From the sequence record PQ850622.1: a stretch of DNA of 64,000 nt. One strand, 5' to 3'. This DNA comes from Escherichia phage OliverMaurmann_Bas86. Below are positions 25,724 to 47,520 of this stretch, piece by piece (position 1 is the first letter of the stretch; every line of letters begins with the position of its first letter). The translations under genes were made by a program, and so were the position numbers. The notes below the pieces were generated by a model, which did no database searches, was not told where the DNA came from, and worked only from the letters and a program-made list of their open reading frames with translations.

Positions 25724-27571
25724 TTAGTGAGTGTGATTCCAGTTTAACCCAATCTTACAATCAGATGCAAGAGGACATTCCATTTTGAGGTATTCACCTG
25801 CTTTACGAACACACTCTTCAGTGAGGGTACGAAGTTTGTTAACATCGTCACGATGTACAGTGAACTGGCCTTCATCATGCATGTCAATAACCTTCGCACA
25901 ACGAACACCATCACGCTCAATCCATTTATTAAGGAATAGCATTGCATACTTCATAACAATCGCCCCAGCGCTCTGTAAGAGAGTGTTTAAGGCTTTATGA
26001 ACCATAACCTTTCCAGTTGCATCTCTTCTCATTGTAATACGACGTCCATCCACACCGTAGATGTATCCACTTTGTGCTTTCTCTGTCATACGTTCAATAA
26101 GAATTGCAATACAAGGATTCTCTGCTAAGAATCTTGCCCTCATGACAGCCCCTTCATCAGAGCCACCACCTACGATGCTTCCTAACTTAGCGTCACCAGC
26201 TCCGTAGTTGAATGCATAGATAAACGTTTTAGCATTATCACGAGTAGGAAGGCCAGCAAGTTTTTGGTTATGTGAGTGAATATCTCCTTCTAAAAGAATA
26301 TCTCTGTACATAACAGCAGAAGCTAGACCGCGTTCAGCTTCTCGTTTCTTAGCTGGGTTGTTTTCCTGCTCTGCTTCAGCGAGCATCTCACGACATTCTT
26401 TGATAAGGTAATGAGCAAGCATCCTCAGCTCAAGACCAGAGCCATCGTAACCTAAGAAGATTTCACGACCAGCAGGTACATAAAATTTATAAGCACCTAT
26501 TGGTTTGTCTTTCTTGCCCGGTTTTCCCATTTCGTAGATAATGTTAGTACCCTTTCGTACGTAACACCCATCAGGGATATGGTTGGTAATGATGAAAGGA
26601 TGGTTATGACTATCGTCTGAGGAATAGTCAGATTGAAAAAGACTGCGGCACTCGTGACCAAACAAACCGCGAGAAGGAATATTAACAACAATGCGATGTT
26701 TAAAACGAAATGTCGGAGTAGCGCAGCTATTAGCTTCGGCGGACAACTTACCATCTTTACGTTCCTTGTCGATAAGCCCGCTAATCAAACCTAGCCTGTG
26801 AGCCGCTACAACGCGTCTCTTAAGCAAACTTCCTACACCCCCTAGCTCACCCCCAAGCCCCTCTTCAAGAGTCTCCTCAAGGTTTGTAGGGGCTGTAGGC
26901 CACTTGTTTGATGTAGCCAAAGCTTTTTTGATTTCATCAAAGGTTACAGGCTTCTTCCTATTAGGGTTGAGACCTAAACCGCTGACATAGGCTTTCATAT
27001 AATTGACAGTGTGATAACGGAAGTGCTTATCCAAAAACCTTCGGATATCAGCATCTATCATCTCTGCTGTCTGTTTCTCTTTAGCGTTACCTCGAATCCA
27101 AGCAGAATACCATGCAGAGTATGTACCATACTTCTTCATAGCTTTACGAATTTCAAAAGTATTCCAAGGTTTCTTAGAATAATTCCACTCTGGAGGTATA
27201 AAACCTTCATCCATCAAGGCTTCTTTGATACGTGCATCTTTTGATGGGTCAAAGTCTACATACTCAACGCAAGTAAACGCCCCACCGATATCTTCTCTTT
27301 TAAGACCAACCCTATCACAATAGAGTTGAGGCCACTTCTGCAAAGCACCGGACTTCTTAAAAGGTTTAGAATAAGTTGAACCATCCACCCGCATTTTGGG
27401 GAGGAGAGGAATCAGTTCTTTATCAATATTGACAATAATCTCTTTGAGAAGATGAACAAACCACCGAGCGTTTCTTCTGTTGAAGTTGACTCCATGCTTC
27501 GCCTGTTTTGAGATTATATCAGCGACTGTCATCTCCGTTATGAAAGGTAACTTATCAGGGTTATCCATCAC
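25724..27571 (-). CDS. DNA polymerase, family A, polymerase domain only
   Basis: Motif A YDGSGLELRMLAH, motif B RDNAKTFIYAFNYGAG, motif C VIDMHDEGQ; no exonuclease motifs in this ORF. Confidence 0.8.
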   Translation of the reverse strand: MMDNPDKLPFITEMTVADIISKQAKHGVNFNRRNARWFVHLLKEIIVNIDKELIPLLPKMRVDGSTYSKPFKKSGALQKWPQLYCDRVGLKREDIGGAFTCVEYVDFDPSKDARIKEALMDEGFIPPEWNYSKKPWNTFEIRKAMKKYGTYSAWYSAWIRGNAKEKQTAEMIDADIRRFLDKHFRYHTVNYMKAYVSGLGLNPNRKKPVTFDEIKKALATSNKWPTAPTNLEETLEEGLGGELGGVGSLLKRRVVAAHRLGLISGLIDKERKDGKLSAEANSCATPTFRFKHRIVVNIPSRGLFGHECRSLFQSDYSSDDSHNHPFIITNHIPDGCYVRKGTNIIYEMGKPGKKDKPIGAYKFYVPAGREIFLGYDGSGLELRMLAHYLIKECREMLAEAEQENNPAKKREAERGLASAVMYRDILLEGDIHSHNQKLAGLPTRDNAKTFIYAFNYGAGDAKLGSIVGGGSDEGAVMRARFLAENPCIAILIERMTEKAQSGYIYGVDGRRITMRRDATGKVMVHKALNTLLQSAGAIVMKYAMLFLNKWIERDGVRCAKVIDMHDEGQFTVHRDDVNKLRTLTEECVRKAGEYLKMECPLASDCKIGLNWNHTH

Positions 27572-30836: not shown

Positions 30837-31484
30837 TTAACTCTCCAAAGTTTTCTTCAAAGCTGCCCATGAGATTGGATAGAGTTTAGCCATCTCTTCA
30901 TCTAATGACTGAGCAAATAGTCGAACTTCATATTGAGCATGGGATGATAGTCGTTGACGACACAATTCAAACCAGCCATACAAGCTACCAGTCCAGTACC
31001 AAGTAGTTACCATACCTTGAGGTAAAACAAATCTAGCTTGTTCAGGAGCTACGAACTTAATCAATTCGTCATAACTAGCAAGAGATGCCTCGTACGCAGA
31101 GTTAAACAAAGCTAAAGCTTTTGCCTCTTCCTCCCCTTCAAGAAGTATTCCAGAACCAGAATGTAGATCATCTGGACGGGAGAAGATTTCTTTAGGTATG
31201 AAAATATCCACTGCTCCATCTTTATATCTACGACTCATCTCGTTCCAAGAAAAACCAACTTGATGCTTCTGTAACTGTCGTGCAATTGCTATAGGAGCTT
31301 CGCATCTGAAGCTCGCTTGTGGGTGACGAAAAGGACTTACGTGTCGTTCCCGAGCTAGAAAATTTATTAGACGAGTGTCACTTTCTTTTAATTCTTCCCT
31401 TTCTACCCCCATAGTTACACGAGCAGCATTGACTACTGTAAGATCTGAACCGAAGTTATCAATTAATGAAGCTTTGATTGTCAT
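30837..31484 (-). CDS. thyX: flavin-dependent thymidylate synthase (ThyX-like)
   Basis: RHPQASFRCEAPIAIARQLQKHQVGFSWNEMSRRY matches the ThyX RHR...S...SxRY signature. Confidence 0.7.
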   Translation of the reverse strand: MTIKASLIDNFGSDLTVVNAARVTMGVEREELKESDTRLINFLARERHVSPFRHPQASFRCEAPIAIARQLQKHQVGFSWNEMSRRYKDGAVDIFIPKEIFSRPDDLHSGSGILLEGEEEAKALALFNSAYEASLASYDELIKFVAPEQARFVLPQGMVTTWYWTGSLYGWFELCRQRLSSHAQYEVRLFAQSLDEEMAKLYPISWAALKKTLES

Positions 31485-31950
31485 TTATGTAAGTCTCCTT
31501 GACTTTATTATATTCCCTAGAGGCTTCTTCTATGGTTGAGAAGAGTCCTATGTGCTTAGATTTAAATACCGCCCGGTAAGCAATAGAGCCACTTTTCCTT
31601 CTATGGACAGTCACTCCAATCACTCCGGTTGATAAATTATTACTCTGAGCTACTTTGTTTAGGCCATTTCCTGATCTAGTAGTCCCCCTAAGATTCTCTC
31701 TTTTGTTGTTTATCCTGTTGCGGTCTATGTGATCTACTTCTTCAGGAAGCAATCCAGTGTCCCACCAGTAAGCAAGTCGATGAGCGTAGTATCTAGCACC
31801 TTTATAAACGATTCTCAAATACCCATTGGTATTTACAGAACCAGCTATAGACCCTTTGTGTCCTTTTCCATAAGTTTTAACCCATCGGAAATCTCCAGTC
31901 AAAGGGTCGTAATCAAGAGCTTCTTTTATTGACGGGTCAATATCATTCAT
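31459..31950 (-). CDS. HNH homing endonuclease with AP2-type domain
   Basis: YAHRLAYWWDTGLLPEEVDHIDRNRINNKRENLR plus VIGVTVHRRKSGSIAYRAVFKSKHIGLFSTIEEASREY. Confidence 0.6.
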   Translation of the reverse strand: MNDIDPSIKEALDYDPLTGDFRWVKTYGKGHKGSIAGSVNTNGYLRIVYKGARYYAHRLAYWWDTGLLPEEVDHIDRNRINNKRENLRGTTRSGNGLNKVAQSNNLSTGVIGVTVHRRKSGSIAYRAVFKSKHIGLFSTIEEASREYNKVKETYINDNQSFIN

Positions 31951-34248: not shown

Positions 34249-34782
34249 TTATACGCCTTTAGAAGCAACAACCCCATCAGAGTTATTGTAACGACCCTTC
34301 ACTGCATAGGAATCATCACCAGCGTGAGAGTGTTCAAACATAACCATTTGACCAACACGCATCCCAGCACGAACTCGTAAGCTGTGATTGTGGGTAACGT
34401 TATGGAACTCAAAGGTTAGCTTACTGCTGTTAAACCCTGCATCAGCCCACCCAGCATGTAAGTGGTTCAAACCACAACGAGCCATTGAGGAGCGAAGTAC
34501 AAACAGACTTGAGATGTTATCTGGAAGGTTAAACTCTTCCATTGAGTGCGCTAAGAAGAATTGTCCCGGAGTGATGACAATACCATCTTCAGGGATTTTC
34601 ACCTCTTTCCACTTGAGGTTTTCTTTAGCATCAATGTCAACAATGCCGTCAGCCTGTTCTTCAACAAGGATAGTATCACCAATACGGATATCCACACTAG
34701 CAGCGTTAACATATTTATGCTCCGCATCTAAAAAGCCATTATCAATAACACTGTGTAATTCTTGAGAACCTAAAAGACTCAT
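34249..34782 (-). CDS. dCTP deaminase / dUTPase-family enzyme
   Basis: ASVDIRIGDTI, LRSSMARCGL, AGWADAGFN, GMRVGQMVMF. Confidence 0.6.
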   Translation of the reverse strand: MSLLGSQELHSVIDNGFLDAEHKYVNAASVDIRIGDTILVEEQADGIVDIDAKENLKWKEVKIPEDGIVITPGQFFLAHSMEEFNLPDNISSLFVLRSSMARCGLNHLHAGWADAGFNSSKLTFEFHNVTHNHSLRVRAGMRVGQMVMFEHSHAGDDSYAVKGRYNNSDGVVASKGV

Positions 34783-36227
34783 GAGTTTCTGTTTCCTTGT
34801 ACAGATGATGCCAAATTGTTAATCATGTTACGAGCTGTTTCACGAGTCAGCGTAACACCTGCTAAGTTACTATCAAGTTCACCAACTAATTCACGAGCTG
34901 TTGCTCGGAGTTCTGCACCAAGTGTAGTGTTAGAATGAGCCAGACCATTACGACGACCGACAGGTCGAGGAGTATTGTTAGCATCATTAGCTAAAGATGC
35001 AAAACCAATACGAGCAGCTTCACGAGCGGCTATAGCTGCTACCCGATCTTCCGTAGGGGTTGGCAAATCACCAACTTCTACACGTTCTATATCACTAGAA
35101 CGTAGACCCTGAACAACAGAGCTAACTGTTTCCCATGAACGACGGGAGCGCTGCAAATCACCCATAGATGGAGAAGAAGCAGGTCGAACAGTTACTCCAC
35201 CTGTATCATGAGTGACGTGCCATGTACGAGTACCCATTCCAGAAGAACGGGCACTACCAAAACTACCAGTGAAAGTATCACGAGGTGCCTCTGTAGCAGG
35301 TGCTGCGAATCTTGTCTGTTGCCAAGAGTCACGTCTGTCAGTTCCCGGAGTCCAAGGCTGCGTAATTGCTTCAGCACCTATAGTGGTTAATCCGCTAGAC
35401 CATTCTGTCTGTAGATTAACTTCCTCGTCCAGATAACTACGACCCCTTTCCTGAGGAATGTTTAATATAGTTTCCATCATCTTCAGGGTATAATGATGAC
35501 GCTGATTCTGATATAAATTTACACCAGCCATAGGTCCAACTAAATCACTAATCAGGTGAACTTCTGGCTCACCGAAAGCTCCCATTGCAAGGTGCATGTA
35601 TTCAGTAGAACTGCTATAAACTGCAACAGTTGCTTCAGGCCACTTCTTGTGAACATACTTCATTTCACGACTAGATACCACAGGAATGTCACGAGTGTAT
35701 GACATTGCAAACAAACCTTCGTTTGACACATACAGATTACCAAGAGTCATAAACCCTTGACAGATCATAGGAAAGCGACGGCTTAAAGTATCCATATCCA
35801 AAGGTAGATTAATCATCATCTGGATTTTAACTTGATCAATCTCAATTTCCAGAATCTCTTGGAAAGTGAAAAGCGCTTCAGCATAGGTTGTCCCGTTAAC
35901 AGGCTGAATTAGTCGAGATGTAACCTGAAGCCCCTTACTTTCTGTCCAAGATAAGAAGTTGTCAAGGAATAGTGCAGCATTACCTACGTTAGCAGGGCTG
36001 TTTTCTTGACGAGTGTTCCAACGAAGCCCTCCTTGAACTAGGAAGATATCAACATCATTCGGAGTTCTATTTTGAAAGAACGTATCACGGATAGCACCAC
36101 CTGCAATAACAGGATAGATGCCATCAGGGACTACGTTATCTCTGATCAAATTACGAATCAGGTCAAGCCCTACACTGAGGGCTTCTCCTTCTTGAAGGTT
36201 CAATTCAGATAGTGGAATCTTAATCAT
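34779..36227 (-). CDS. Pol-beta-superfamily nucleotidyltransferase (CCA-adding-enzyme-like head domain) with low-complexity C-terminal half
   Basis: PVIAGGAIRDTFF...NDVDIFL resembles the GGxVRD...DxD head motif; C-terminal ~200 aa Ser/Thr/Arg/Gly-rich. Confidence 0.4.
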   Translation of the reverse strand: MIKIPLSELNLQEGEALSVGLDLIRNLIRDNVVPDGIYPVIAGGAIRDTFFQNRTPNDVDIFLVQGGLRWNTRQENSPANVGNAALFLDNFLSWTESKGLQVTSRLIQPVNGTTYAEALFTFQEILEIEIDQVKIQMMINLPLDMDTLSRRFPMICQGFMTLGNLYVSNEGLFAMSYTRDIPVVSSREMKYVHKKWPEATVAVYSSSTEYMHLAMGAFGEPEVHLISDLVGPMAGVNLYQNQRHHYTLKMMETILNIPQERGRSYLDEEVNLQTEWSSGLTTIGAEAITQPWTPGTDRRDSWQQTRFAAPATEAPRDTFTGSFGSARSSGMGTRTWHVTHDTGGVTVRPASSPSMGDLQRSRRSWETVSSVVQGLRSSDIERVEVGDLPTPTEDRVAAIAAREAARIGFASLANDANNTPRPVGRRNGLAHSNTTLGAELRATARELVGELDSNLAGVTLTRETARNMINNLASSVQGNRNS

Positions 36228-36229
36228 TT

Positions 36230-36778
36230 CTACATTTTCCAGTTGAGAGATGGGGGATTCTTATAATCAAATCCAGCCATTTGGCAAAGACACATGTAAA
36301 CCTTAACTGTCAAGTTAACGTCTTGTTCACAATACGTGAACATGTCTTCAGTGAAAGCATCCCATGCTTCTTCCTGTTCACCATAGTCACCCTTCAGCTC
36401 TCCCAGAAATTCGCCCCATTGCTTGAGGCCATGACCGCGAGGTCCGTGTCTAGGGTCGCCTTTGGGATATTCTGGACTGTCACCAATACGGTCAGGCTTG
36501 AGGTATCGACTCAGGCACAGGGTATCAAAGACATTAAAACGAAAAGGTATCACATGAGAGTAGAATTTAAACAAAGCAGGAAGGTCAAAATCAATAATAT
36601 TGTGACCTATTACTACATCAGCTTCTTTCAGTTTGTGTAGTGCTTCTTCAATTTGGTGAGGGCGATACCCCCACCGTTCTCCAGACAGTACATCAAATAT
36701 CCATATACACCAGACATTCTGAATACCATCATAGAGGTTATCACCTTCAATATCAAACGCATACAGTTTCTTTACCAC
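36230..36778 (-). CDS. 3'-5' exonuclease (DnaQ-like DEDDy), separate from the polymerase gene
   Basis: Exo I FDIEGDNL, Exo [14 protein letters not shown], Exo III YCEQDV. Confidence 0.65.
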
Positions 36779-38562
36779 GGACGTGCCTCCCCTTCTTGTG
36801 AAAGTAAGGAAGCTGCATCTTCTCCGTTGGTGACTGTAAACGGATTATCTTCATCAACTTCATGATCTTCTCGTTCCACAAGACGACCTGTTTCGTTAAT
36901 GTATTTGGTATAGCAAACCCCTGTCTGTCCATAGTTACGCTCTTTGAGCAGACGTATGATTGACAAGTTTTTACCTAACCCATCCGCTTGTTTATTACGT
37001 TCGAAACCGATAATACATTGACACCAGCGCATTAATGAACGTGAGCCAGTAAACTGTACTTCTTTAACCTGACCACCTTCTTCGTGAGGGGCACCGCCCG
37101 CCGGAGCATTCAAGTGAGATAACACAAAAGCAGTGAAGTCTAATTCCTTACACATACCAGCAAGCTCTGAAGCAATCTTACTGATTTCTGTATTCACTTC
37201 GGATGGAGTTAAGTGAGATACCAATGCAGTGATGTTATCAAGAATGATAAATTTACACTGATTCTCAACTACCCAAAAGCGAATACACTGCTTAATGTCT
37301 TCCCATTCGTTCTGCCCAAAGTTGTCATACAAGAAAAACTTATCAGCGTATCGAAGTGCTTCATCTCGTAGCTGGCTTTCTTCGTACTCAACATCTGGTC
37401 GGTGGAAAGGTACAGATGCTGACTTACCTGCAATGTTCTTAACAGACATGCCTACCTTCTCTTCCAAGAAGAAGCCACCACCATTAAAACCATGCTCAAG
37501 GCAAAGCCATGCTACCAGTTCGTGTGCGATTAAGGTTTTACCTGAACCAACACCACCGCCGATTGCAACCATCTCTCCCCAACGAATACCGAAAGTCATG
37601 TCGTTAAGAGTTTTCCACGGATAAGGGATACCCCACTCCGCTTTCTTCAGAGCATCTTCAAGGCAATCAAAAACTGTAACAGCGCCGGCAGGAGATTCCC
37701 GCTTAGCTGAATATTTCAGATTGTTGAAAAGCTCTTGACCTCTCCCTGCAAGTAACATGTCGTTTGCATCTTTGATTTCCTTTTCTTGTCCGTTATAAGT
37801 GAACGTACCTTTTGGAATTCTTGCAAACTTGACATGTGGGTACAGAGAACGACCTTTAGTCAATGCAATCTCTCCTGCATCATCATTGTCCATGCAGAGT
37901 ACAATCTCCTCGAAACCATTAATAAAATCACGATTTCTTGACAACACAGAAGAGATTGAACCTGCACCGAACGGAAGAGAGACACAAGCAGGTTTGATAT
38001 TAGTTGCGTTTGTGAACGCAGTAAGTACGTGGAATCCAGACATACAAGAGAGTGGGTCTTCGAAGATGAAGAGCTTCTTATTGTAAACATCGCCACGTTG
38101 TGCTTGAGCCATACCAAATAAGTCGGCTTCTTTCACATTACCTACATAATAGAACTTCTTGCTGTCTAGAAGTTTTACTTCATATCCAACAATATTCCCA
38201 TCACGTTCACGAGGGAAGAAGTAGCTGTCAGGAGTTTGACCGTCTGTTTGACTTAAACCAATACGGCATCCATAACGTTCAGATACAGCTTTAGGAATTA
38301 AGCGACGAGTCAATTCTCCCTGAGGAAGCTCTAAGCAATCGTCTAAGACTTCTCGGAGTTCTTCAGGGGACAGCTCTTTCTTTTCATTAGGGGTGGGCGT
38401 CGTTCCTTTCTCGAAGATTTCATACGCACCACATCTGTTACATGAACCCCACTCCTCACCGGACTCTTCATTTCGGAAGAGAATCATGTGATTGCGGGTC
38501 TTATCACGACCATGAGAGATACACTCTTTACAGCCCGTGTCTCCCAAAATGATCTTTGACAT
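36772..38562 (-). CDS. DNA primase-helicase (T7 gp4-like)
   Basis: N-terminal zinc ribbon [10 protein letters not shown]...CNRCG; helicase Walker [10 protein letters not shown]. Confidence 0.8.
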
Positions 38563-38597: not shown

Positions 38598-38804
38598 TTA
38601 GTAAAACGATCGTATTTCTTCCCACACATCATCTTGCAAGTTTCTAAAACCCTGCAAGGTTTGCTTTGTTCTGTGAATAAATTCTTCAGAGTGCTTATCA
38701 GGTGTGAGCATACTGACAAACTTTTCATAGCGATTAATCTTCCACCGCATCTTCAAGTAGTCAGATTCCAGCTTTCTTAACTTCTGCCTGTCAGTTACTG
38801 TCAT
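38598..38804 (-). CDS. hypothetical protein
   Basis: Internal Met of ORF 38598..38900 chosen to limit overlap with 38791..39222. Confidence 0.25.
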   Translation of the reverse strand: MTVTDRQKLRKLESDYLKMRWKINRYEKFVSMLTPDKHSEEFIHRTKQTLQGFRNLQDDVWEEIRSFY

Positions 38805-39222
38805 CCTTCTCACCTGCCAGATATGCTGTCCAGTCACCAGATTCAACCAGAACATCTTGTTCTTCGTCGATGTGATAAATCCACGCTTCCACAGTTTCAC
38901 CGCTGTCCAATAATACTGGAATCAGCGTACGCTTATAAAAGGTGTATGGGTTATCATTGCCACGGTGACCTTCCAGACCGTCATATGGGCCTTCCAGACC
39001 AGCTTGGGTTGTTTCAAAGACTTCTACACGAACAGGCTTACCATTGCTGTCATGCTCCAAAGATACACTTGGGAAGTATGCTGTGCAATACTGATACAGG
39101 TTACAGTTGTTTACTGTCCACCCTTCACCAATAGACACACCACCTGCACGAGCATTGATAGCATGGTTGTGTTGACCTTTTCTCAAGCTTCCGTAAGTTG
39201 CAACTAGTACTTTATCAGACAT
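38791..39222 (-). CDS. gamma-glutamyl cyclotransferase-like (AIG2/GGCT fold) protein
   Basis: N-terminal VATYGSLRKGQHNH matches the YGSL signature of the GGCT/AIG2 family. Confidence 0.5.
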   Translation of the reverse strand: MSDKVLVATYGSLRKGQHNHAINARAGGVSIGEGWTVNNCNLYQYCTAYFPSVSLEHDSNGKPVRVEVFETTQAGLEGPYDGLEGHRGNDNPYTFYKRTLIPVLLDSGETVEAWIYHIDEEQDVLVESGDWTAYLAGEKDDSN

Positions 39223-39739: not shown

Positions 39740-40975
39740 TTACAGAGTTACTGCTACTTCGCTACCTTCAACATTGACAGACTCTAACTTGCGAGGGTTA
39801 TGAATCTGTACCGGATTAACCGGAACGTTCCAACCACTACGGTAGAAGTTACGACCATCACAGAACAAAATGACATTGGCAGACATTGCATTCGGTTGCA
39901 GGTTGTTATGGACATGACGGATATCTGCAATCCAATAACCACGAGACAAAGTGTAACCAGTAGGTGCATTACGAATAGTTTGAGTATTCATCTGACCTTC
40001 CAGTTGCATCTCTTCAGGAACTACATCTACCGAATCAACTGGCTGTGCTACCTGATCTTCCAGTGCAAAGTTTTCATCATTAGCGCTTTCGCTGTCATCT
40101 ACCAACTCACCGTCTCCATCTTCAATCGGAGTCTGGTAAACCACTTTATACTGAGGAGTATAGAGAGGGTTCTGAGCTTTAACAAACTCAAGGATGTTAT
40201 GGCGGTAGGTATCCAGAGTTGTACCAGTCAGGCCCGGTGCTGTATTAACTTCCAGTACCCACGCTTCTTGACCTTTGGTGATAATATCAACTGCACCGAA
40301 ATCCAGACCCATTGATTCAACAGCTTTCACCGCATTGATCAGAGAGGCGTCATTCGGAGCATCTGTGAAGGAGCTTGAGTAAACCCAGCCAGTGTGGTGA
40401 TTACGAATATCTTCACGATAGTTAGGGTCTTCGCGATAACCATTGCGACGAATCTTCTTCTGAACATAGGTGATTACACCTTTGAACACATGAACACGCC
40501 ACTCACGACGTGGGCCTTGAATGCCTTTAGTGTACAGTTCAGCTCGACCAAGACCATCACCCGGTTCTACAACAACAATACCCGAACCAGAGTGACCAGT
40601 CAGCTCATGGCGCTCATACACAATATTACCAGTGTTTGACCACTCCTGAGCAGTCTCTTGAACATCTGTGTATTCCACAGTTTTAACACCTGCTTGGTCC
40701 ATCACACTGAAAGCACGACGTTTGTTCGCTGCCATATATAAGGCTGCGGTACGGTTAAGGACGGTTGCAGAACCAAAGAATGATTCAGGATAGCGACGGT
40801 TCCCGTAGTTAACAACCACATCACCTTCACGAGAACGCCAGCGGCTATTCTCTGAAAGAAGACCCATCACGTTAGCATTGATGCGTTCATCACGGATAGT
40901 ATCACTGATAGCAGATACTAGAGCGTTAACAGAATCAGACGGGCCATACGGAAGAACACGGATACGAGTAGTCAT
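39740..40975 (-). CDS. ATP-grasp family ligase
   Basis: GHSGSGIVVV, EWRVHVF, and C-terminal AWVLEVNTAPGL typical of ATP-grasp folds. Confidence 0.55.
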   Translation of the reverse strand: MTTRIRVLPYGPSDSVNALVSAISDTIRDERINANVMGLLSENSRWRSREGDVVVNYGNRRYPESFFGSATVLNRTAALYMAANKRRAFSVMDQAGVKTVEYTDVQETAQEWSNTGNIVYERHELTGHSGSGIVVVEPGDGLGRAELYTKGIQGPRREWRVHVFKGVITYVQKKIRRNGYREDPNYREDIRNHHTGWVYSSSFTDAPNDASLINAVKAVESMGLDFGAVDIITKGQEAWVLEVNTAPGLTGTTLDTYRHNILEFVKAQNPLYTPQYKVVYQTPIEDGDGELVDDSESANDENFALEDQVAQPVDSVDVVPEEMQLEGQMNTQTIRNAPTGYTLSRGYWIADIRHVHNNLQPNAMSANVILFCDGRNFYRSGWNVPVNPVQIHNPRKLESVNVEGSEVAVTL

Positions 40976-40977
40976 TT

Positions 40978-41208
40978 TTAGATACCTTTTAGTTTAAGAA
41001 TTTCGTTACGACAGGATTGAATTTTAGCTTCGATTGCCCAATACTCAGCGAACATTTCGTCTTCTTGGGCATCGCTTGGAGAGTCAATTAAGTTAAAAGC
41101 AAACGGATACAGCTTTCGCTGCTCCGTTACCAGTTGTTGAAGTCGGAGTTGTTGATACTCCAGCATTGTCAGGTGAGGCTTAGCTCCCTTGCTTGACATG
41201 AGGCTCAA
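40978..41208 (-). CDS. hypothetical protein
   Basis: 76 aa ORF. Confidence 0.3.
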   Translation of the reverse strand: MSLMSSKGAKPHLTMLEYQQLRLQQLVTEQRKLYPFAFNLIDSPSDAQEDEMFAEYWAIEAKIQSCRNEILKLKGI

Positions 41209-41413
41209 CTTTAATCCCCTTCATTTTAACATAGTCAGCCAACACGTTATTGATAACGGTTGGAAAAGGGATTTCTACTGGAGAGTCAACCAGCTTCCCA
41301 ATACCTTCTTGCATCCACTTCTGGATTGCTCGGAGGTTATCACATCCTGTGCTTGTCATCGGAATACGGCGGGTAGTTACCACGTTATCCAACATCAGTT
41401 TACGAACTTCCAT
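41180..41413 (-). CDS. hypothetical protein
   Basis: 77 aa ORF. Confidence 0.3.
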   Translation of the reverse strand: MEVRKLMLDNVVTTRRIPMTSTGCDNLRAIQKWMQEGIGKLVDSPVEIPFPTVINNVLADYVKMKGIKVEPHVKQGS

Positions 41414-41424
41414 AACTATACCTC

Positions 41425-43458
41425 TTAGTGTTTACCTTTACAGTAATCTGAATTACAGATCACCCTGTTTTCTTTGTTCAGTGAGCAAGTTTCTGCATCA
41501 CGCCACGGAATTTGTTTATAACAGACTGCACAAAACCCAATTGAAGTCCAGAGGGCTTTTGTAAACTCAGCTGTTCGTTGTCCATCGTAACTGACAACTG
41601 TTTTTCGGAGAGAGGTTGACTTTTCTGGAAATGTCTCCGCTTTCTCAGCGGGTACCTCCTTTGGGGCATTCTTTGGACCATAAACAGAGATGGCATAAGT
41701 ATCACCACCACGTTTTTCCAAATACGAATTAGGAACATCTGCAAGTGTGATGTCCCCTGAACGTTTTGCTGAGCTGACCATTACAATCATACGGCTAAGC
41801 ATACGTTCATCAACACGAACAGCTACTTCAGGACGACGTGGGTTGGTTGTGTCTACTGCTTTAGTCCAAATATAACCTTCAGATAGAGTAACATTCTTTA
41901 CTTTATCTTTGATTTCTTTGGAGCAGATATAACAAACGTCTTCACCACGAAGTTTACTCATTTCGTTGTCAAACTCGAAATCAGTCTTGACTTCACCACA
42001 GATAGCACATACACCCAAAGGCACATCTTCTTCCTCTTCAGAGGTTTTAGATAACGCTTCGAAGCATTCTGGATGCCAGTATGCCTGATAAGCAAACACA
42101 GCCTTACGAGCATCTTTCCAGTCAATGTGCTTATCACAACCACCACAGTCACCATGAGAGTGAGATTCCCAGAACTTACGAGTGACTTCTACACCATTCT
42201 TAGTGATGAAGGAGTCCTCTGCATCAAAAGGGATATCATCATCAAAATCAGCAGTAGTGCTTTGAGGCTCCTTATCTGTAGCATCAACAAACAGCCCTGA
42301 AGTTAGTACGAGGCGAATCATACTGTCCACTTCGGAGATACAAGCGATTGTCCCGCGATATACTACCTTTGGGTTTTCAAGAGCCTTAAGATATTCATCT
42401 TTGGCTACGTTGTGAACATCCCCTTCGACATACTCTTGGGCTTTATCATCGTAGATGTAACCAACCATCTTACCACGATCTGTGTTGTTATAAGCATGGA
42501 ACTCGTGAGGAGTAATATCCACACGACCATCACGACGATAAGGAAGACCACGATCGGCAGCCAGTTTGTTCTGGTCTTCAATCGCTTTACGACGACGAAT
42601 GTCTCCGCTTGTCACGCCGGGCTTGTCGTCTTTGTTTCCGTAAATGTCGCTTGTGCTGCTGCTTGGTTTGTTTGTCTGTTGGTTCTGATAAAGAGAGGAG
42701 TTCGAGTAATAGCCGCCCCAGCGACTCGTTACCGTAAAAACCGGAAGCTTGTGCTCCACCTCTTGAACCAGAGTCATACGACTGTTAGACACATCAAAGA
42801 TATACTCAGTTCCCACTTTACACTCGAAGTGGTCATTGATACGGTTCTTGTGGGATTTAGAACGCTCTAAAATCCACATAAGCATAGCTTCTTCAGAAGC
42901 CCCAAACCAATCCAAACCACAGCGGGCTAGGTGGAAAGGACGCTCATCATTACGGATAATGTGAAGCGTGTTGTCTTTAGCATCATGCCAAATCAAAGTG
43001 AATGCACCATCCAGTTTTTGGATAGTCTCTGCTGCTCCAATGGTGTTAATTGAGTGGCAGATGTTTTCACTATCAACTTCGAAACGCTTACTGTCAGGAA
43101 GGAGATCTTGATCTAACAGGGTTCCATTATGAACCAGAGTAATATCCCCGTGAGTAAATGGGTGAGCATTTCGAGCATTGACAGCCCCACGAGTGGCATG
43201 TCGGCTGTGACCAACAATCCACGAAGGAGGAACTACGTAGTTCGTAAGCCCTTTGGTAATATTTGTATATTCTGTCTGGAGCATAAAAGCATAAGAAGGA
43301 AGAGCTTCTTTATAAGAGAAGACTTGCTTTTCACCTTTACGCTGACCAAACACACCAGTTGAGTGCTGTCCACGGAAAACACCAGCATACAGAAGTTGGT
43401 TGAAAATGTCCAAATCTGCTGAGGTCATGTTGCCGCCAGCTAATACGATACCACAAAT
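41425..43458 (-). CDS. class-II (Ntn) glutamine amidotransferase with Cys-rich C-terminal domain; probable ATT start
   Basis: In-frame extension upstream of the first ATG reads stop-K-I-CGIVLAGGN-M...FRGQHSTG, i.e. the Cys1 nucleophile and RGxxxxG motif of Ntn amidotransferases; AGGTGG lies 8 nt upstream of the ATT. Confidence 0.55.
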   Translation of the reverse strand: MCGIVLAGGNMTSADLDIFNQLLYAGVFRGQHSTGVFGQRKGEKQVFSYKEALPSYAFMLQTEYTNITKGLTNYVVPPSWIVGHSRHATRGAVNARNAHPFTHGDITLVHNGTLLDQDLLPDSKRFEVDSENICHSINTIGAAETIQKLDGAFTLIWHDAKDNTLHIIRNDERPFHLARCGLDWFGASEEAMLMWILERSKSHKNRINDHFECKVGTEYIFDVSNSRMTLVQEVEHKLPVFTVTSRWGGYYSNSSLYQNQQTNKPSSSTSDIYGNKDDKPGVTSGDIRRRKAIEDQNKLAADRGLPYRRDGRVDITPHEFHAYNNTDRGKMVGYIYDDKAQEYVEGDVHNVAKDEYLKALENPKVVYRGTIACISEVDSMIRLVLTSGLFVDATDKEPQSTTADFDDDIPFDAEDSFITKNGVEVTRKFWESHSHGDCGGCDKHIDWKDARKAVFAYQAYWHPECFEALSKTSEEEEDVPLGVCAICGEVKTDFEFDNEMSKLRGEDVCYICSKEIKDKVKNVTLSEGYIWTKAVDTTNPRRPEVAVRVDERMLSRMIVMVSSAKRSGDITLADVPNSYLEKRGGDTYAISVYGPKNAPKEVPAEKAETFPEKSTSLRKTVVSYDGQRTAEFTKALWTSIGFCAVCYKQIPWRDAETCSLNKENRVICNSDYCKGKH

Positions 43459-43535
43459 TTTCTAATCCACCTGAAGGGTAAACCCTTTCATCTAATTAAC
43501 CTTTAAATGCGCCCTGTATAAGAGCGCCCGTTGTG

Positions 43536-44636
43536 TTACAGCAGTCGTTCTAATTGCATTTCCAGAAGGTCTGGAATATAACCAGTGACGTTATCATCAC
43601 TGCTACCTGATTCACGCATCAATGCAAACATGTGACGAATTTCACGAACCGTTGCGATTCGAGTGCTTTCAATCTGAGGGGTGTAGTAGGTCATGATCTC
43701 TTCGTAGACACTGTTGGCATTACCGCGCACATATCCCAAGAAACCATAGAAGTCATTCATATCACGTAAGTTGATAAGGACTTCACCATCAGGGCCAGTC
43801 TGTTGCACACGAACACGACCAACCAAAGTCACAGATTGCTCACGACAGAAGAGAATATCACGAGCAAGACGATACCCTTCAGTGAGATCACTGTCTCTTG
43901 GAGTATAGTCTAGGGGTAGATGTTGAATCATAGGAGCGAAGCGCAGCTCATTCAACTTCTCAACATAAGCTTCATTGTCTAAATCTGCATATTCAACAGC
44001 CAGTTTCTTGAGAACCAAGAAGCGGTTGACCAGATTCAGAAGTTGGCTCTTTTTCCACTTCGGCTCTGAGATACGGAACTCAACAGAACCAAATTGAGAT
44101 AGAGGCAAAAGATTAAGGGAGGTATATTTATCCCAGCTATTAACAAGAGAGTGGAAGAAAGCTTCCCCGTCTCGGTTGAACGCTGACGAAGCATTCATAA
44201 CTTGTGCTTGAACGACAGCAAAAGCTGGACAGAAGTTGCTACGATAGCGATGGTATCCAGAACATTTGAACATCATCTTTTCATAGAACGTCCATCCAAG
44301 AATAACTTTCTTAAGGATGTTACTATCAGCGTCACGCATATCCATATGAACATGAGTGGAGCAGCGCCAAGTTCCCTCGGCTCCAGAATCCTGTACTGCT
44401 TCACTCAGATTGTTAATAGCACGAAGTAATTCTTCACCGTTGTAAGGTCGTGCACATACTAATTCACAACCATCACGAAGAGAGCCATCTTCAGTACAAA
44501 CCCACATATCAGCGTCAATGTCAGTTGTACCTTCGACTTCTAACTCAATACCAACACCACACTGAAAAGCAATACTTGGATGCGGTTCAGATAAGCGAGG
44601 GTTACGGTATCCAAAAACTTGTGCTACGGTTGTCAT
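43536..44636 (-). CDS. glutamine-synthetase-fold carboxylate-amine ligase (amidoligase)-like protein
   Basis: GVGIELEVEG and STHVHMD resemble the GxExE and HVH motifs of YbdK-type ligases. Confidence 0.45.
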   Translation of the reverse strand: MTTVAQVFGYRNPRLSEPHPSIAFQCGVGIELEVEGTTDIDADMWVCTEDGSLRDGCELVCARPYNGEELLRAINNLSEAVQDSGAEGTWRCSTHVHMDMRDADSNILKKVILGWTFYEKMMFKCSGYHRYRSNFCPAFAVVQAQVMNASSAFNRDGEAFFHSLVNSWDKYTSLNLLPLSQFGSVEFRISEPKWKKSQLLNLVNRFLVLKKLAVEYADLDNEAYVEKLNELRFAPMIQHLPLDYTPRDSDLTEGYRLARDILFCREQSVTLVGRVRVQQTGPDGEVLINLRDMNDFYGFLGYVRGNANSVYEEIMTYYTPQIESTRIATVREIRHMFALMRESGSSDDNVTGYIPDLLEMQLERLL

Positions 44637-45259
44637 AATGATTCCACCAACTCTACATTATATGATGACAGGTCTGAAGAAATATGCTTGAACTTCTCCA
44701 GAAGGTTTAAAGATTGACGACCATTGTCGCCATAACCAGCTTCAAGAAGCACGTTTCCAACGTAAGCCCCTTTGTAATAAACTTTTCCATCGACAGGATT
44801 GATATAGATGAAACGAGTAACCAACCCTTCAAACTCTGGATTAAACAGGTTGTACACCAATTCACCCGGAATCGAACGACCGAGAGAAGGAGGTGCACCG
44901 CGAAGTTTGTTTCCCATCAAACCTTTAGCTCTCTGACGAACAGGGTTGATATGGGTCCAGCTCACCATGTTATTGCCATGCTGAAGGTATCCTACATCTG
45001 GAGATTCCAGAATAAGGCTGTGATCAAACACTGGTATATTGCTAACAATCTGACGTTCAAACTGACCTTCAGAGTTTTTAGTCCAACGTTCTGCCTCAAA
45101 CACTAAAGACATTTCAGCGTCGTGTGAGTAGTCGTCGATATCAAAGTTACCTTGCTGACGAACATCAAGCACATATAGAGGGAGGTTTTTACCATCAGGT
45201 GATCGCTGAGCAATCCATGTTCCACAATAATAGTGTTGAAAATCTCTTAACAAGCTCAC
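44633..45259 (-). CDS. hypothetical protein in amidoligase module
   Basis: 208 aa ORF, overlaps neighbours. Confidence 0.35.
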   Translation of the reverse strand: MSLLRDFQHYYCGTWIAQRSPDGKNLPLYVLDVRQQGNFDIDDYSHDAEMSLVFEAERWTKNSEGQFERQIVSNIPVFDHSLILESPDVGYLQHGNNMVSWTHINPVRQRAKGLMGNKLRGAPPSLGRSIPGELVYNLFNPEFEGLVTRFIYINPVDGKVYYKGAYVGNVLLEAGYGDNGRQSLNLLEKFKHISSDLSSYNVELVESL

Positions 45260-45268
45260 AATATCACC

Positions 45269-46078
45269 TTATACAATCTGGAGTTTAGAGGAGAATTTAT
45301 CCGCTTCTTTAACATCGTTGCTGTTGATGATGTTATGAAGCTTTTCGATTGGAAGACGAGAGTGAAGTGACATCAACACTTCCATATCACAGCCTTGAAC
45401 AACCTTATCCACTTGCTCATAAACAAACTTGCGGGTTGACTTCTCACCAATCCAGAAGTTAGAAAGAGAACGATATTCAATACCGTAGTCCTTGTAACGA
45501 ATAGCAGAAGCCTTTCCGTACAACTCTTTACGACGAGTGTCTTTATCCATGATTACAGCTGGCAAGGACAGGAAGTAATCACACAGCACACCCAACATCA
45601 TTTGAGTTTGTCGATTGATCTCCAAAGTTCCAGAGACACCGAGGTGCACATGGCCCCCAGCAGTACGCAAACCTTTATCGGTTGCGACTGGTGAAGGGTT
45701 CTTTTGTCCAGTGAAGGCGTTGAAATCAGGAGTACAGCCAAATACAAAAGCTGACGGATGGAATGATTCAAGCTCTTCTGAAGTGAACACATGAGAGCTA
45801 ATCCCAAGCGCTGCTTCCAGACCACGATCATTCAGGATTTTGTTAGTCAGATCAATACCGCGCTGAATATTATCATCAAACGCTTCAAACCCTTTCTGTG
45901 GGTTAATATCAAACTCAGCCAGAACGTTGTCTTCTTGAAGACGAACATCAGGAGCCAGATCAATTTTGTTATCTTTAGAACATCCCAGCTTACCAGCCAC
46001 AGAGGTGATAATACCGGAAGCAGTACGAACAAACATTTCCGGATCCGACCCTATTAAGAATTTACGTTTAGTAGTCAT
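45269..46078 (-). CDS. second amidoligase-like protein (weaker match)
   Basis: FLIGSDPEMF and GGHVHLGV echo the same GxExE / HVH pattern. Confidence 0.35.
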   Translation of the reverse strand: MTTKRKFLIGSDPEMFVRTASGIITSVAGKLGCSKDNKIDLAPDVRLQEDNVLAEFDINPQKGFEAFDDNIQRGIDLTNKILNDRGLEAALGISSHVFTSEELESFHPSAFVFGCTPDFNAFTGQKNPSPVATDKGLRTAGGHVHLGVSGTLEINRQTQMMLGVLCDYFLSLPAVIMDKDTRRKELYGKASAIRYKDYGIEYRSLSNFWIGEKSTRKFVYEQVDKVVQGCDMEVLMSLHSRLPIEKLHNIINSNDVKEADKFSSKLQIV

Positions 46079-46545
46079 GCTTTAGTCCAACCTTTATGAG
46101 ATAGATAGTTTTTAAATCTGCCACTGTGCACAGCGCCCATGTGGCCTTGATGTAAGTCGTTGCTTCTACAGAAGTCTCTAAGATTGTATATTGTTACAAC
46201 CTCGCCATCTGGAGATCTAAACTTCCAAAATCTAGCATTCCCTTTCACAGCGTTTTCTTCACTGGTCAGAAGTTGGAAATTACTTGGGTGGTTATTAAGT
46301 TTATCGCCATCGATGTGATCAACAGTCATACCATCCGGAATAGGCCCAATAAACAATTCATACATAAGTCTATGTAATAAAAAGTTCCTTGTTATCTTTT
46401 CAGGAGCCTGAACTGTTGTAAACTTAAGATAACCATCTTTATCAGGAAACAGTTTCCTCTGTTTCCCTGTTCTTGCATGGAATATACTACCGTCTTCGAA
46501 CACCAAGAAGGTAGCAACTCCGACTACTAACTCCCTAAATTCCAT
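46075..46545 (-). CDS. HNH homing endonuclease
   Basis: VDHIDGDKLNNHPSNFQLLTSEEN. Confidence 0.55.
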   Translation of the reverse strand: MEFRELVVGVATFLVFEDGSIFHARTGKQRKLFPDKDGYLKFTTVQAPEKITRNFLLHRLMYELFIGPIPDGMTVDHIDGDKLNNHPSNFQLLTSEENAVKGNARFWKFRSPDGEVVTIYNLRDFCRSNDLHQGHMGAVHSGRFKNYLSHKGWTKA

Positions 46546-46569
46546 AGAGAGCCAATAAGGAAAGCACGC

Positions 46570-47520
46570 TTAGTCATTGTAATACTCCACGAGTTCATCA
46601 AAAAGGGAAACAACACGAGCACCAGCTTCTTCTGGTGTCATTGAGGAAGGTACTGCTTGCATCAGTCGTTCGATAAAACTGCGAACAGTGATTCTGTCCA
46701 TACGCTGATCTAATACTTCTCGCTTGTGACCTGCACAAGTTGACCAGAGACGCAACCACTCACTCATACTTTCATAATGGTCAGGGTCTTGGTCACGACG
46801 GCGTGCCATACGACGGAGAACTCCATCATTATGGTTTCGTACATAACCATCTCGGTTATCATCAACACCGAACACATTCTGAACCCATACGTTTTCAGAA
46901 AATTCATCAGTGGTGCAAATTAGTGGCAGAAATGCAATTGCACTCATGTCACCATCAAAATAAGTCGCTGCTGACTCATCGGTTGAGTCTACGTCATTAC
47001 TATAACACCAGCGACCAAAGAAGTTACGACTTAAACCAGCTAAGCGTAGAGCTAAACCGATTCGTTGTCGCTTAAGCAACTCTTCCTTGTCTTGTACGCC
47101 TTCCTGAAGGAACTCCATTCCATTAAAATCACCATCCAAATAGCTACGGATGGTCATTAGTCCAGTAAACACCTTGTCTGCTGGATGGTTTCGAAGGTTC
47201 ACGGCAATGGAGTTCACCGAAGTGACAGAGAACATATCTTTATAGCAAGACATTGAGTTAAAAATGTCTGTTGCTTCAACTAAAGCTCTTTCGATATCTT
47301 TAGCCGGCACGCCATAAAAATTGTGAGGCCAGAAGTTAATAACTTCAATTTCTGAAGTTCTGTCACGAAGGCTTGTTCGGTTACGACTTTCACCGTTAAT
47401 GTCTGTAACAGAATACATGTGCATACAGTTAAAAGTACCAAAGCAAGCTCTTCCTTTGAACACTGACTCACCGAAATCCTCTGCCGGTGTTACCGGAGCA
47501 ATCGATGCGGAGATTGACAT
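46570..47520 (-). CDS. hypothetical protein in amidoligase module
   Basis: 316 aa ORF. Confidence 0.35.
   Translation of the reverse strand: MSISASIAPVTPAEDFGESVFKGRACFGTFNCMHMYSVTDINGESRNRTSLRDRTSEIEVINFWPHNFYGVPAKDIERALVEATDIFNSMSCYKDMFSVTSVNSIAVNLRNHPADKVFTGLMTIRSYLDGDFNGMEFLQEGVQDKEELLKRQRIGLALRLAGLSRNFFGRWCYSNDVDSTDESAATYFDGDMSAIAFLPLICTTDEFSENVWVQNVFGVDDNRDGYVRNHNDGVLRRMARRRDQDPDHYESMSEWLRLWSTCAGHKREVLDQRMDRITVRSFIERLMQAVPSSMTPEEAGARVVSLFDELVEYYND

What the first reader, a model, noticed from the sequence alone, without database searches (positions are those of the whole stretch)
34779..36227. Pol-beta-type nucleotidyltransferase with a long low-complexity tail
The N-terminus (PVIAGGAIRDTFF...NDVDIFL) looks like the head domain of CCA-adding or poly(A)-polymerase-type nucleotidyltransferases. 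The C-terminal ~200 residues are Ser/Thr/Arg/Gly-rich and probably disordered. It sits directly downstream of the 3'-5' exonuclease. Possible roles are tRNA 3'-end repair, template-independent nucleotide addition or signalling-nucleotide synthesis.
Basis: partly seen in the sequence, partly recalled or inferred. Interest (0 to 1): 0.5.

Follow-up and report, generated by a model that had tools for sequence, protein, structure and literature searches.

The report
Minimal CCA/poly(A)-type phage nucleotidyltransferase, lysine-free tail
This gene of a phiEco32-like E. coli phage encodes a stripped-down relative of the enzymes that add CCA or poly(A) to RNA ends, followed by a disordered lysine-free tail; public records already label it "nucleotidyltransferase", but its substrate and role have never been tested.

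Summary
Window 34779-36227 (minus strand) is a real 482-aa gene. It is 99.6% identical to the annotated "nucleotidyltransferase" of Escherichia phage AnnaHegner_Bas87 and is the orthologue of phiEco32 gp73 (PHROG 12715).

- **Tail (283-482):** predicted disordered and rich in Ala, Arg, Thr, Ser and Gly, but not repetitive. It is under purifying selection (dN/dS about 0.28, core about 0.1) and carries short conserved motifs. It has no lysine, as in every relative's tail.
- **Context:** the family is small (29 clusters) and phage-only. The gene always lies between the T7-type polymerase exonuclease subunit and a dCTP deaminase.

My best reading is an active, template-independent terminal nucleotidyltransferase. 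It is not a canonical CCA enzyme. The substrate is unknown. Interest is moderate and the annotation is already public.

The parts
34779..36227 (-). Whole gene, 482 aa plus stop. It is the orthologue of phiEco32 gp73, SU10 gp74 and Bas87_0069 'nucleotidyltransferase'.
   Evidence: ORF list. PHROG 12715 matches over the full length, E = 7e-169. 99.6% aa identity to Bas87. phiEco32 locus.
35796..36227 (-). Residues 1-144: Pol-beta-type catalytic head domain of the class II (CCA/poly(A) polymerase) kind.
36042..36107 (-). Motif A, residues 41-62 (IAGGAIRDTFFQNRTPNDVDIF): GG, RD and the two catalytic aspartates D58 and D60.
   Evidence: G43, G44, R47, D48, D58, D60 and F62 never vary in 25 non-redundant relatives. 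A profile of the family matches CCA-adding enzymes here only, E = 0.005.
35838..35864 (-). Residues 122-130 (FQEILEIEI): the beta-strand carrying the presumed third catalytic carboxylate, E124.
   Evidence: Position 124 is D in 16 and E in 9 of 25 relatives; I125 never varies. Strand E122-130 in the model. Assigning it as the third carboxylate is an inference from the Pol-beta fold.
35382..35795 (-). Residues 145-282: family-specific alpha/beta subdomain that replaces the neck, body and tail of CCA enzymes. It contains invariant P153, Y191 and K195 and an always-acidic position 188 (SREMKYVHKKWP, 35637-35672).
   Evidence: Confident model, pLDDT 80-93. No Pfam, NCBIfam or PADLOC match. Beyond motif A nothing aligns with Cca by hhalign. 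Conservation counts.
35388..35402 (-). WSSGL (residues 276-280): conserved [WY][ST]xG[LR] motif at the boundary between core and tail.
   Evidence: Present in most relatives, including short ones.
34782..35381 (-). Residues 283-482: predicted disordered tail with no lysine, rich in Arg, Ala, Thr, Ser and Gly.
   Evidence: pLDDT below 50. 0 Lys and 23 Arg. All relatives' tails have 0 Lys. The Lys-free run covers residues 250-482, P about 2e-6. dN/dS 0.12-0.47. No tandem repeats.
35130..35150 (-). RSRRSWE (residues 360-366): short linear motif R(R)xS[FW][EG] shared by otherwise unalignable tails.
   Evidence: Found in phiEco32 (RRTSFE), P0023, P0025, P0026, P0027, P0035 and P0041. The tails are otherwise unalignable by BLASTP, best E = 0.047.
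36230..36778 (-). Upstream neighbour: 182-aa 3'-5' exonuclease, the split-off proofreading domain of a T7-type DNA polymerase.
   Evidence: PF01612. PHROG 'DNA polymerase exonuclease subunit'. Best solved relative is T7 DNA polymerase residues 4-142, E = 4e-8.
34249..34782 (-). Downstream neighbour: dCTP deaminase, with a start codon overlapping the stop of the nucleotidyltransferase gene.
   Evidence: PF22769, E = 1.5e-34. The second- to fourth-best solved matches are entries 2qxx, 2qlp and 4a6a; that these are the M. tuberculosis dUMP-forming bifunctional enzyme is from my own knowledge. ATGA overlap.
36772..38562 (-). First gene of the conserved block: T7 gp4-like primase/helicase.
   Evidence: DnaB_C and Toprim hits. 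PHROG 239, E = 4e-175.
25724..27571 (-). 615-aa ORF matching in length and position the family A DNA polymerase that lacks exonuclease domains; partner of the split exonuclease, about 8 kb downstream.
   Evidence: ORF of 615 aa. Bas87_0045 and phi32_53 are 1845-nt genes at the equivalent position, annotated 'DNA polymerase; lacks 5'-3' and 3'-5' exonuclease domains'. The window ORF itself was not searched.

Best explanation
The gene encodes a catalytically competent, minimal nucleotidyltransferase of the class II (CCA-adding / poly(A) polymerase) lineage.

- **Catalysis.** The head domain (1-144) carries the metal-binding DxD, a third acidic residue and the GG/RD triphosphate-binding loop. A family-specific subdomain (145-282), with invariant Y191 and K195 and an always-acidic position 188, replaces the neck, body and tail domains that give CCA enzymes their nucleotide templating and tRNA grip.
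- **Most likely activity.** The enzyme transfers nucleoside monophosphates, without a template, from (d)NTPs to the 3'-OH of a nucleic acid. RNA is the default acceptor because every characterised member of this lineage works on RNA 3' ends. It would then be a tailing or end-repair enzyme, not a sequence-defined CCA synthase.
- **Expression.** It is made as part of the primase/helicase - exonuclease - NTase - dCTP deaminase operon, alongside replication and nucleotide supply.
- **Tail.** The lysine-free, Arg-rich tail is a disordered docking arm. Its short aromatic motifs (WSxGL, RRxS[W/F]E) would bind a partner protein or nucleic acid. It is dispensable for catalysis, because many relatives lack it.

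**Shown:** the fold, the conservation of catalytic residues, the synteny, and the constraint on and composition of the tail. **Inferred:** catalytic activity, the acceptor, the donor nucleotide and the role of the tail.
For: - **Sequence:** motif A of the family profile aligns to CCA enzymes (IaGGaVRD..PhDvDI, E = 0.005). PF01743 'PolyA_pol head' gives weak hits in 18 of 31 relatives.
- **Catalytic residues:** G43, G44, R47, D48, D58 and D60 never vary, and position 124 is always D or E, in relatives down to 21-25% identity. dN/dS of the core is 0.02-0.17. These argue for an active enzyme.
- **Synteny:** the primase/helicase - exo - NTase - DCD order is kept in distant metagenomic relatives and in phiEco32. 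Gene junctions are tight or overlapping, with no minus-strand terminator-like site from the dCTP deaminase to the primase/helicase gene.
- **Analogy:** structurally similar short 'PolyA_pol head' proteins occur in other podophages. The LKD16 ORF that I take to be one of them, on its length (199 aa) and motif A, lies between the helicase and ligase genes.
- **Expression:** the SU10 orthologue was detected by mass spectrometry (PMC4281155).
- **Tail:** pLDDT below 50, dN/dS about 0.28, conserved short motifs, 0 Lys in every lineage.
Against: - No activity has been measured for any family member.
- The window protein itself has no Pfam hit.
- Profile-profile comparison with an E. coli-type Cca profile aligns motif A only, with probability 11%.
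- Motifs B (RRD) and D (EDxxR) are absent at conserved positions. The sugar and base specificity, and therefore the choice of RNA over DNA, cannot be deduced.
- Placement in a DNA replication and dNTP-supply operon next to a DNA proofreading exonuclease fits a DNA- or dNTP-related role at least as well as an RNA role.
- The phage's only tRNA already encodes its CCA, and the 99.6%-identical Bas87 genome has no annotated RNA ligase or polynucleotide kinase.
Confidence: 0.4

Rival explanations
1. A true tRNA CCA-adding or CCA-repair enzyme. It would rebuild damaged tRNA 3' ends during infection, for instance to counter host toxins or nucleases that trim or block CCA ends.
For: The closest folds are CCA-, CC- and A-adding enzymes. 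Motif A matches them by sequence. [quoted passage not shown] The Arg-rich tail could supply RNA binding.
Against: Only the head domain is shared. No PF12627 RNA-binding (neck/body) domain is found, and no motif B or D at conserved positions. Many relatives are about 280 aa with no tail, so the tail cannot be the essential tRNA grip. From my own knowledge, the host has its own Cca. The phage tRNA-Arg encodes CCA. There are no companion RNA-repair genes. The neighbouring exonuclease is a DNA polymerase domain.
Confidence: 0.12
2. A DNA- or dNTP-directed enzyme working with the dCTP deaminase. Either it helps build a non-canonical base or nucleotide pool that protects the genome from restriction, or it acts as a terminal transferase on replication intermediates or genome ends.
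For: The strictly conserved, tightly packed position between the polymerase proofreading subunit and the dCTP deaminase. The BASEL authors report that Gordonclarkvirinae are remarkably resistant to restriction-modification systems without known modification or anti-restriction genes, and they name this NTase and the deaminase as candidates (PMC11990801). The window still holds 18 EcoRV, 9 EcoRI and 8 EcoKI sites. Motif B, which in class II enzymes selects ribose according to my own knowledge, is absent, so dNTPs are not excluded.
Confidence: 0.15
3. A nucleotidyltransferase whose acceptor is not a nucleic acid. It could make a free signalling or decoy oligonucleotide, or nucleotidylylate a host or phage protein or small molecule, as an anti-defence or takeover function.
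Against: There are no PADLOC or Pfam matches to CD-NTase, SMODS, MNT or RelA/SpoT families. The GGxxRD...DxD signature is the class II one. E. coli Cca is similarly acidic, so charge does not discriminate.
Confidence: 0.13
4. A catalytically irrelevant scaffold. It would be a replisome accessory protein that uses an old NTase fold and its disordered tail only to bridge the split exonuclease, the polymerase, the helicase or host factors.
For: It is always encoded next to the exonuclease subunit of a split polymerase. The tail bears short linear motifs typical of docking regions.
Against: Every catalytic-site residue is invariant across relatives at 21-25% identity, which is not expected of a dead enzyme. 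Many relatives have no tail.
Confidence: 0.05

Closest known systems
Class II tRNA nucleotidyltransferases and bacterial poly(A) polymerase I (Pfam PF01743 PolyA_pol head; E. coli PcnB 3aql, B. stearothermophilus CCA 1miv, Aquifex A-adding 4wby)
   Different: It has no recognisable motifs B-E and no neck, body or tail domains. Residues 145-282 form a family-specific subdomain. The window protein does not reach any Pfam threshold. The tail is lysine-free and much longer.
Short 'PolyA_pol head domain' / 'nucleotidyltransferase' proteins of T7- and phiKMV-like podophages (for example LKD16 ORF16, LIMEzero, phiAS7, Cd1, Providencia PS3)
   Same: Head-only architecture. The best viral structural matches reach a target TM-score of about 0.6. 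They share motif A. The one case checked is encoded in the DNA replication module, between the helicase and ligase genes of LKD16. I found no functional study of either group.
   Different: They are 140-250 aa, without the 145-282 subdomain or the tail. Sequence similarity is confined to about 40 residues (hhalign probability 33%).
phiEco32 gp73 / SU10 gp74 / PHROG 12715 (the same family)
   Same: Orthologous position and core. phiEco32 is 33% identical over residues 1-283. Both carry a lysine-free tail.
   Different: The tail of this Suseptimavirus-type clade (about 200 aa) cannot be aligned with the Kuravirus tail (about 150 aa) except at short motifs.
CD-NTases (CdnE/DncV/cGAS), OAS and MenT/AbiEii toxins
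   Different: Lower structural scores, a different active-site signature, and no PADLOC or Pfam match.

Membership tests
Pol-beta nucleotidyltransferase superfamily | alpha-beta-alpha-beta-alpha-beta core with hG[GS] followed by [DE]h[DE]h and a third carboxylate on a later strand | tested here: met
Class II CCA-adding / poly(A) polymerase family (PF01743 head) | Motif A, GGxVRD-x(n)-DxD | tested here: met
   IAGGAIRDTFFQNRTPNDVDIF. The family profile aligns to CCA enzymes here, E = 0.005. R47 and D48 never vary.
Class II CCA-adding / poly(A) polymerase family (PF01743 head) | Score above the Pfam PF01743 gathering threshold | tested here: not met
   The window protein has 0 Pfam hits at E up to 1. 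18 of 31 relatives give only weak hits, best E = 2.5e-4.
Class II CCA-adding enzymes (functional CCA synthesis) | Motif B (RRD, ribose selection) and motif D (EDxxR, base templating) in the head-neck | tested here: not met
   No conserved RRD or [ED]DxxR column in the family alignment; the only conserved later positions are Y115, Q136, P153, R187 (20 of 25), D/E188, Y191 and K195. hhalign against a Cca profile aligns motif A only. The motif definitions come from my own knowledge of the family.
Class II CCA-adding enzymes (functional CCA synthesis) | Neck, body and tail domains that bind the tRNA (PF12627 and others) | tested here: not met
Class II CCA-adding enzymes / PAP I | Template-independent NMP addition to an RNA 3'-OH | not testable with these tools
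   This needs an enzyme assay.
CD-NTase / SMODS signalling synthases | Match to CD-NTase or SMODS models, and an operon with an effector | tested here: not met
   No PADLOC or Pfam hit. The neighbours are replication and dNTP genes.
DNA polymerase X / TdT | Pol-beta palm plus helix-hairpin-helix fingers and 8-kDa domains and a thumb | tested here: not met
PHROG 12715 (phiEco32 gp73-like 'nucleotidyltransferase') | Full-length match to the family profile, and position between the exonuclease subunit and the dCTP deaminase | tested here: met
   E = 7e-169 over residues 1-475. Synteny.

The most novel reading that the evidence does not exclude
The nucleotidyltransferase, together with the co-translated dCTP deaminase, could be part of an undescribed pathway that alters phage DNA or its precursors. 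That pathway would explain why Gordonclarkvirinae resist type I, II and III restriction systems although sites such as EcoRV (18 in this window) are present. It would be the first class II (CCA/poly(A)-type) head enzyme recruited to DNA or dNTP chemistry.
Probability: 0.1. Interest if true: 0.8.

Novelty: new variant of a known kind. Interest (0 to 1): 0.35.

Why it matters
Head-only class II nucleotidyltransferases appear in the replication modules of several podophage groups, and I found no functional study of them. This one is a strictly conserved core gene of the phiEco32-like phages. That group is used in phage therapy work and is available in the BASEL collection on E. coli K-12, so it can be studied genetically. 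Its authors have flagged an unexplained resistance to restriction. Finding the substrate would do one of two things. It could add a new activity to a well-studied enzyme lineage, showing what a CCA/poly(A) polymerase head does without its templating and tRNA-binding domains. Or it could explain a phage counter-defence. The universal absence of lysine from otherwise fast-evolving tails is a clean, testable oddity. In annotation terms the finding is ordinary: public records already call this gene a nucleotidyltransferase.

Tried and rejected
- **Sequence searches of the whole protein.** Pfam, NCBIfam, PADLOC and PDB sequences gave nothing significant.
- **Homologue search in the 5.8-billion-protein database.** It returned only close relatives (86% identity or more), because only the top-ranked candidates are scored. 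The exhaustive representative search was needed to reach distant members.
- **A 3044-aa hit, P0045.** It has 15 matched stretches but is a repetitive surface-type protein matched through composition. I rejected it as spurious.
- **Tail-only search of the large database.** It returned no hit at all, not even the protein's own family, although BLASTP shows 84% identity to P0016. The null result is uninformative.
- **Profile-profile comparisons.** Against an E. coli-type Cca profile, which has low diversity, and against LKD16 ORF16, only motif A aligned.
- **Fold search against AFDB50.** The library was unavailable. All three fold-search jobs were then spent, so residues 145-282 could not be searched alone.
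- **Internal repeats in the tail.** Only weak similarity between two helix-like segments (z about 4) and no DNA tandem repeats. I rejected it as a repeat protein.
- **Charge as a discriminator of nucleic-acid binding.** Rejected, because E. coli Cca is similarly acidic.
- **phi32_gp36 promoter consensus (TAATGTATA).** The window total is near chance (27 matches at up to one mismatch against 19.4 expected) and no minus-strand match lies within or just upstream of the primase/helicase-to-deaminase block.
- **Rfam scan.** Only the tRNA was found.
- **A paper on a prophage sRNA restricting related phages (PMC12803456).** It does not mention this gene.
- **The idea that the adjacent exonuclease is an RNase D-like tRNA-end nuclease.** Rejected, because its best relative is the T7 DNA polymerase exonuclease domain.
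Full report
**1. What is there**

The window is a phiEco32-like podophage of the Gordonclarkvirinae. A 12-kb stretch around the finding is 94-98% identical to Escherichia phages PAS59, SU7, AnnaHegner_Bas87, ECBP2-type phages and others. The finding's coordinates are exact: an ATG-initiated ORF of 482 aa on the minus strand, 36227 down to 34779.

The protein is 99.6% identical to Bas87_0069, annotated "nucleotidyltransferase". It matches PHROG 12715 ("nucleotidyltransferase") end to end (E = 7e-169). phiEco32 gp73 (437 aa) is the orthologue, 33% identical over residues 1-283.

**2. Gene context**

The minus-strand gene order is:
- primase/helicase (36772-38562)
- a 182-aa 3'-5' exonuclease (36230-36778)
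- this gene
- dCTP deaminase (34249-34782)

The exonuclease stop and the NTase start are 2 nt apart. The NTase stop overlaps the deaminase start (ATGA). No minus-strand terminator-like site lies between these genes.

The exonuclease's best solved relative is the N-terminal proofreading domain of T7 DNA polymerase (E = 4e-8). The phage's family A polymerase lacks exonuclease domains and lies about 8 kb downstream (the 615-aa ORF at window 25724-27571, by length and position). The neighbour is therefore a split polymerase subunit, not an RNA-end nuclease.

The deaminase matches solved dCTP deaminases; entries 2qxx, 2qlp and 4a6a rank second to fourth, and from my own knowledge these are the M. 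tuberculosis dUMP-forming bifunctional enzyme. With the phage's ThyX and dNMP kinase it forms an ordinary dTTP supply route.

The same four-gene order is found in phiEco32. It is also found in metagenomic relatives whose NTase is only 22-30% identical.

**3. The family**

An exhaustive search of 1.84 billion representative proteins with residues 1-289 found only 29 clusters. All loci examined are phiEco32-like phage contigs. Lengths run from 274 to about 490 aa. The conserved core is residues 1-282, and tails are variable or absent.

In 25 non-redundant members the conserved positions are:
- invariant: G43, G44, R47, D48, D58, D60, F62, Y115, I125, Q136, P153, Y191, K195
- always acidic: position 124 (D in 16, E in 9) and position 188 (D in 21, E in 4)

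Core dN/dS among close relatives is 0.02-0.17. Invariant catalytic residues over this divergence argue for an active enzyme.

**4. Fold**

AlphaFold2 with a 31-sequence alignment models residues 1-282 confidently, with block pLDDT mostly 80-95. The tail is not modelled: pLDDT is below 50 for 283-432, 446-463 and 468-482.

| Search | Best matches |
|---|---|
| Foldseek vs PDB | the top 32 hits are class II CCA-, CC- and A-adding enzymes |

By sequence, a profile of the family matches CCA enzymes only across motif A (IaGGaVRDvlfknrePhDvDI against IVGGAVRDLLLGKTPHDVDV, E = 0.005). PF01743 is weakly hit by 18 of 31 relatives but not by the window protein. hhalign against an enterobacterial Cca profile aligns motif A only.

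The best viral structural matches outside the family are 140-250-aa "PolyA_pol head" proteins of T7- and phiKMV-like podophages (target TM-score about 0.6). In LKD16, the 199-aa ORF16 between the helicase and ligase genes has the length of the listed LKD16 protein and shares motif A.

**5. The tail (283-482)**

- **Composition:** Ala 12.1%, Arg 11.6%, Thr 11.1%, Ser 10.1%, Gly 9.0%. There are no DNA tandem repeats and only weak internal similarity.
- **Constraint:** it is real, constrained coding sequence. dN/dS is 0.12-0.47 (median about 0.28) across eight phages. GC3 is very low (0.10-0.27) despite high overall GC.
- **Mosaicism:** core and tail have discordant synonymous distances between phage pairs. 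Window against TH42 gives core dS 0.48 and tail dS 0.05; window against ECBP2 gives 0.12 and 0.30. This indicates recombination at the domain boundary.
- **Short motifs:** the Suseptimavirus-type and Kuravirus-type tails are unalignable overall (best BLASTP E = 0.047). They share ordered short motifs: [WY][ST]xG[LR] at the core boundary (WSSGL 276-280) and R(R)xS[FW][EG] (RSRRSWE 360-366).
- **No lysine:** the tail has 0 Lys against 23 Arg. Every relative's tail, from 20 to 208 residues, also has 0 Lys. The Lys-free run here is 233 residues, P about 2e-6 at the window's 5.4% Lys.

This is the signature of a functional disordered region with docking motifs. The reason for excluding lysine is unexplained.

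**6. Mechanism**

*Shown:* the Pol-beta class II head fold, an intact and invariant active site, co-expression with replication and dNTP genes, and a constrained disordered tail with short motifs.

*Inferred:* the enzyme transfers NMP or dNMP, without a template, to a 3'-OH. All characterised class II enzymes act on RNA 3' ends, so RNA tailing or repair is the default (confidence about 0.4 for a nucleic-acid 3'-end transferase that is not a canonical CCA enzyme).

The rivals are:
- **Canonical CCA repair (0.12).** The missing domains and motifs argue against it. So do the phage tRNA-Arg, which encodes its own CCA, and the lack of RNA-repair partner genes. From my own knowledge, the host also has its own Cca.
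- **A DNA or dNTP role with the deaminase (0.15).** The BASEL authors suggested this to explain the group's restriction resistance (PMC11990801). It fits the synteny and the 18 EcoRV, 9 EcoRI and 8 EcoKI sites still present. ThyX argues against dU-DNA. Strong restriction-site avoidance (CCWGG 0 observed against 72 expected; 10 six-base palindromes absent) implies that the DNA can be cut.
- **A non-nucleic-acid acceptor or a signalling product (0.13).**
- **An inactive scaffold (0.05).**

**7. Comparison and novelty**

The protein works like a class II nucleotidyltransferase head. It fails the membership tests for a functional CCA-adding enzyme: the Pfam threshold, motifs B and D, and the neck and body domains. 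It is a full member of PHROG 12715.

Relative to characterised systems it is a new architectural variant: head, unique subdomain and lysine-free disordered tail. As an annotation it is already in GenBank and RefSeq and has been mentioned in two papers. I found no functional study.

**8. Verdict**

The exonuclease-based hint toward tRNA repair does not hold, and the function remains open. Interest is moderate (0.35): an ordinary annotation, but a conserved, tractable and uncharacterised enzyme with an odd tail and a possible link to unexplained restriction resistance.

Noticed in passing
window 1-64000 (whole window): Extreme restriction-site avoidance. CCWGG (Dcm/EcoRII) occurs 0 times against 72 expected. 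Ten 6-bp palindromes (PstI, SacI, NcoI, SphI, MscI sites and others) are absent. In total there are 624 6-bp palindromes against 1077 expected. GATC is at 0.59 of expectation. EcoRV (18), EcoRI (9), EcoKI (8) and EcoP1 (101) sites remain, although the BASEL paper reports resistance to these systems.
   Followed up: partly
window 34782-35477 and the tails of all relatives (alignment A1): No lysine occurs in any family member's tail, whatever its length or sequence. In this protein the Lys-free run covers residues 250-482. All basic residues there are Arg. No explanation was found.
   Followed up: partly
window 7319-8350 (+) and 10232-11200 (+): Two virion or ejection-module proteins are also strongly lysine-poor. 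One has about 2 Lys in 343 aa (a 305-residue Lys-free run) and the other is 1.2% Lys over 322 aa. By length and position they correspond to Bas87 'membrane protein' and 'DNA ejection protein'.
   Followed up: no
window 36230-36778 (-) and 25724-27571 (-): The T7-type DNA polymerase is split. The exonuclease domain is a separate gene next to the primase/helicase. The polymerase domain is encoded about 8 kb downstream, and the NTase, deaminase, thioredoxin, ThyX, PhoH and other genes lie in between.
   Followed up: partly
window 34782-36227, compared with L006 and L014-L019: The gene is mosaic. Core and tail give discordant synonymous distances between the same phage pairs (for example TH42: core dS 0.48, tail 0.05), indicating recombination near the core-tail boundary. 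The tail also has indels: 461-490 aa variants, with an insertion in SU7 and PAS59 and a deletion in 4E8.
   Followed up: partly
window 39740-47520 (-): A conserved cluster lies upstream of the replication block: a RimK-like ATP-grasp ligase, a class II glutamine amidotransferase, an amidoligase and a COOH-NH2 ligase, with a gamma-glutamyl cyclotransferase gene at 38791-39222. Its product or target is unknown.
   Followed up: no
window 52393-52470 (-): A single tRNA-Arg (anticodon TCT) with its 3' CCA encoded in the gene.
   Followed up: yes
window 31459-31950 (-): A 163-aa ORF at the position of the Bas87 'HNH endonuclease' gene lies between the thioredoxin and ThyX genes. phiEco32 has no gene at this position, so it is probably a homing-endonuclease insertion.
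   Followed up: no
L020 9703-10302 (Pseudomonas phage LKD16 ORF16): A 199-aa head-only nucleotidyltransferase sharing motif A lies between the helicase and ligase genes of a phiKMV-like phage. BFVD lists many similar short proteins in other podophages. I found no functional study of them.
   Followed up: partly
tool behaviour: The tail-only query to the large protein database returned no hits, not even the protein's own 84-95% identical relatives. That null result should not be read as absence of homologues.
   Followed up: yes
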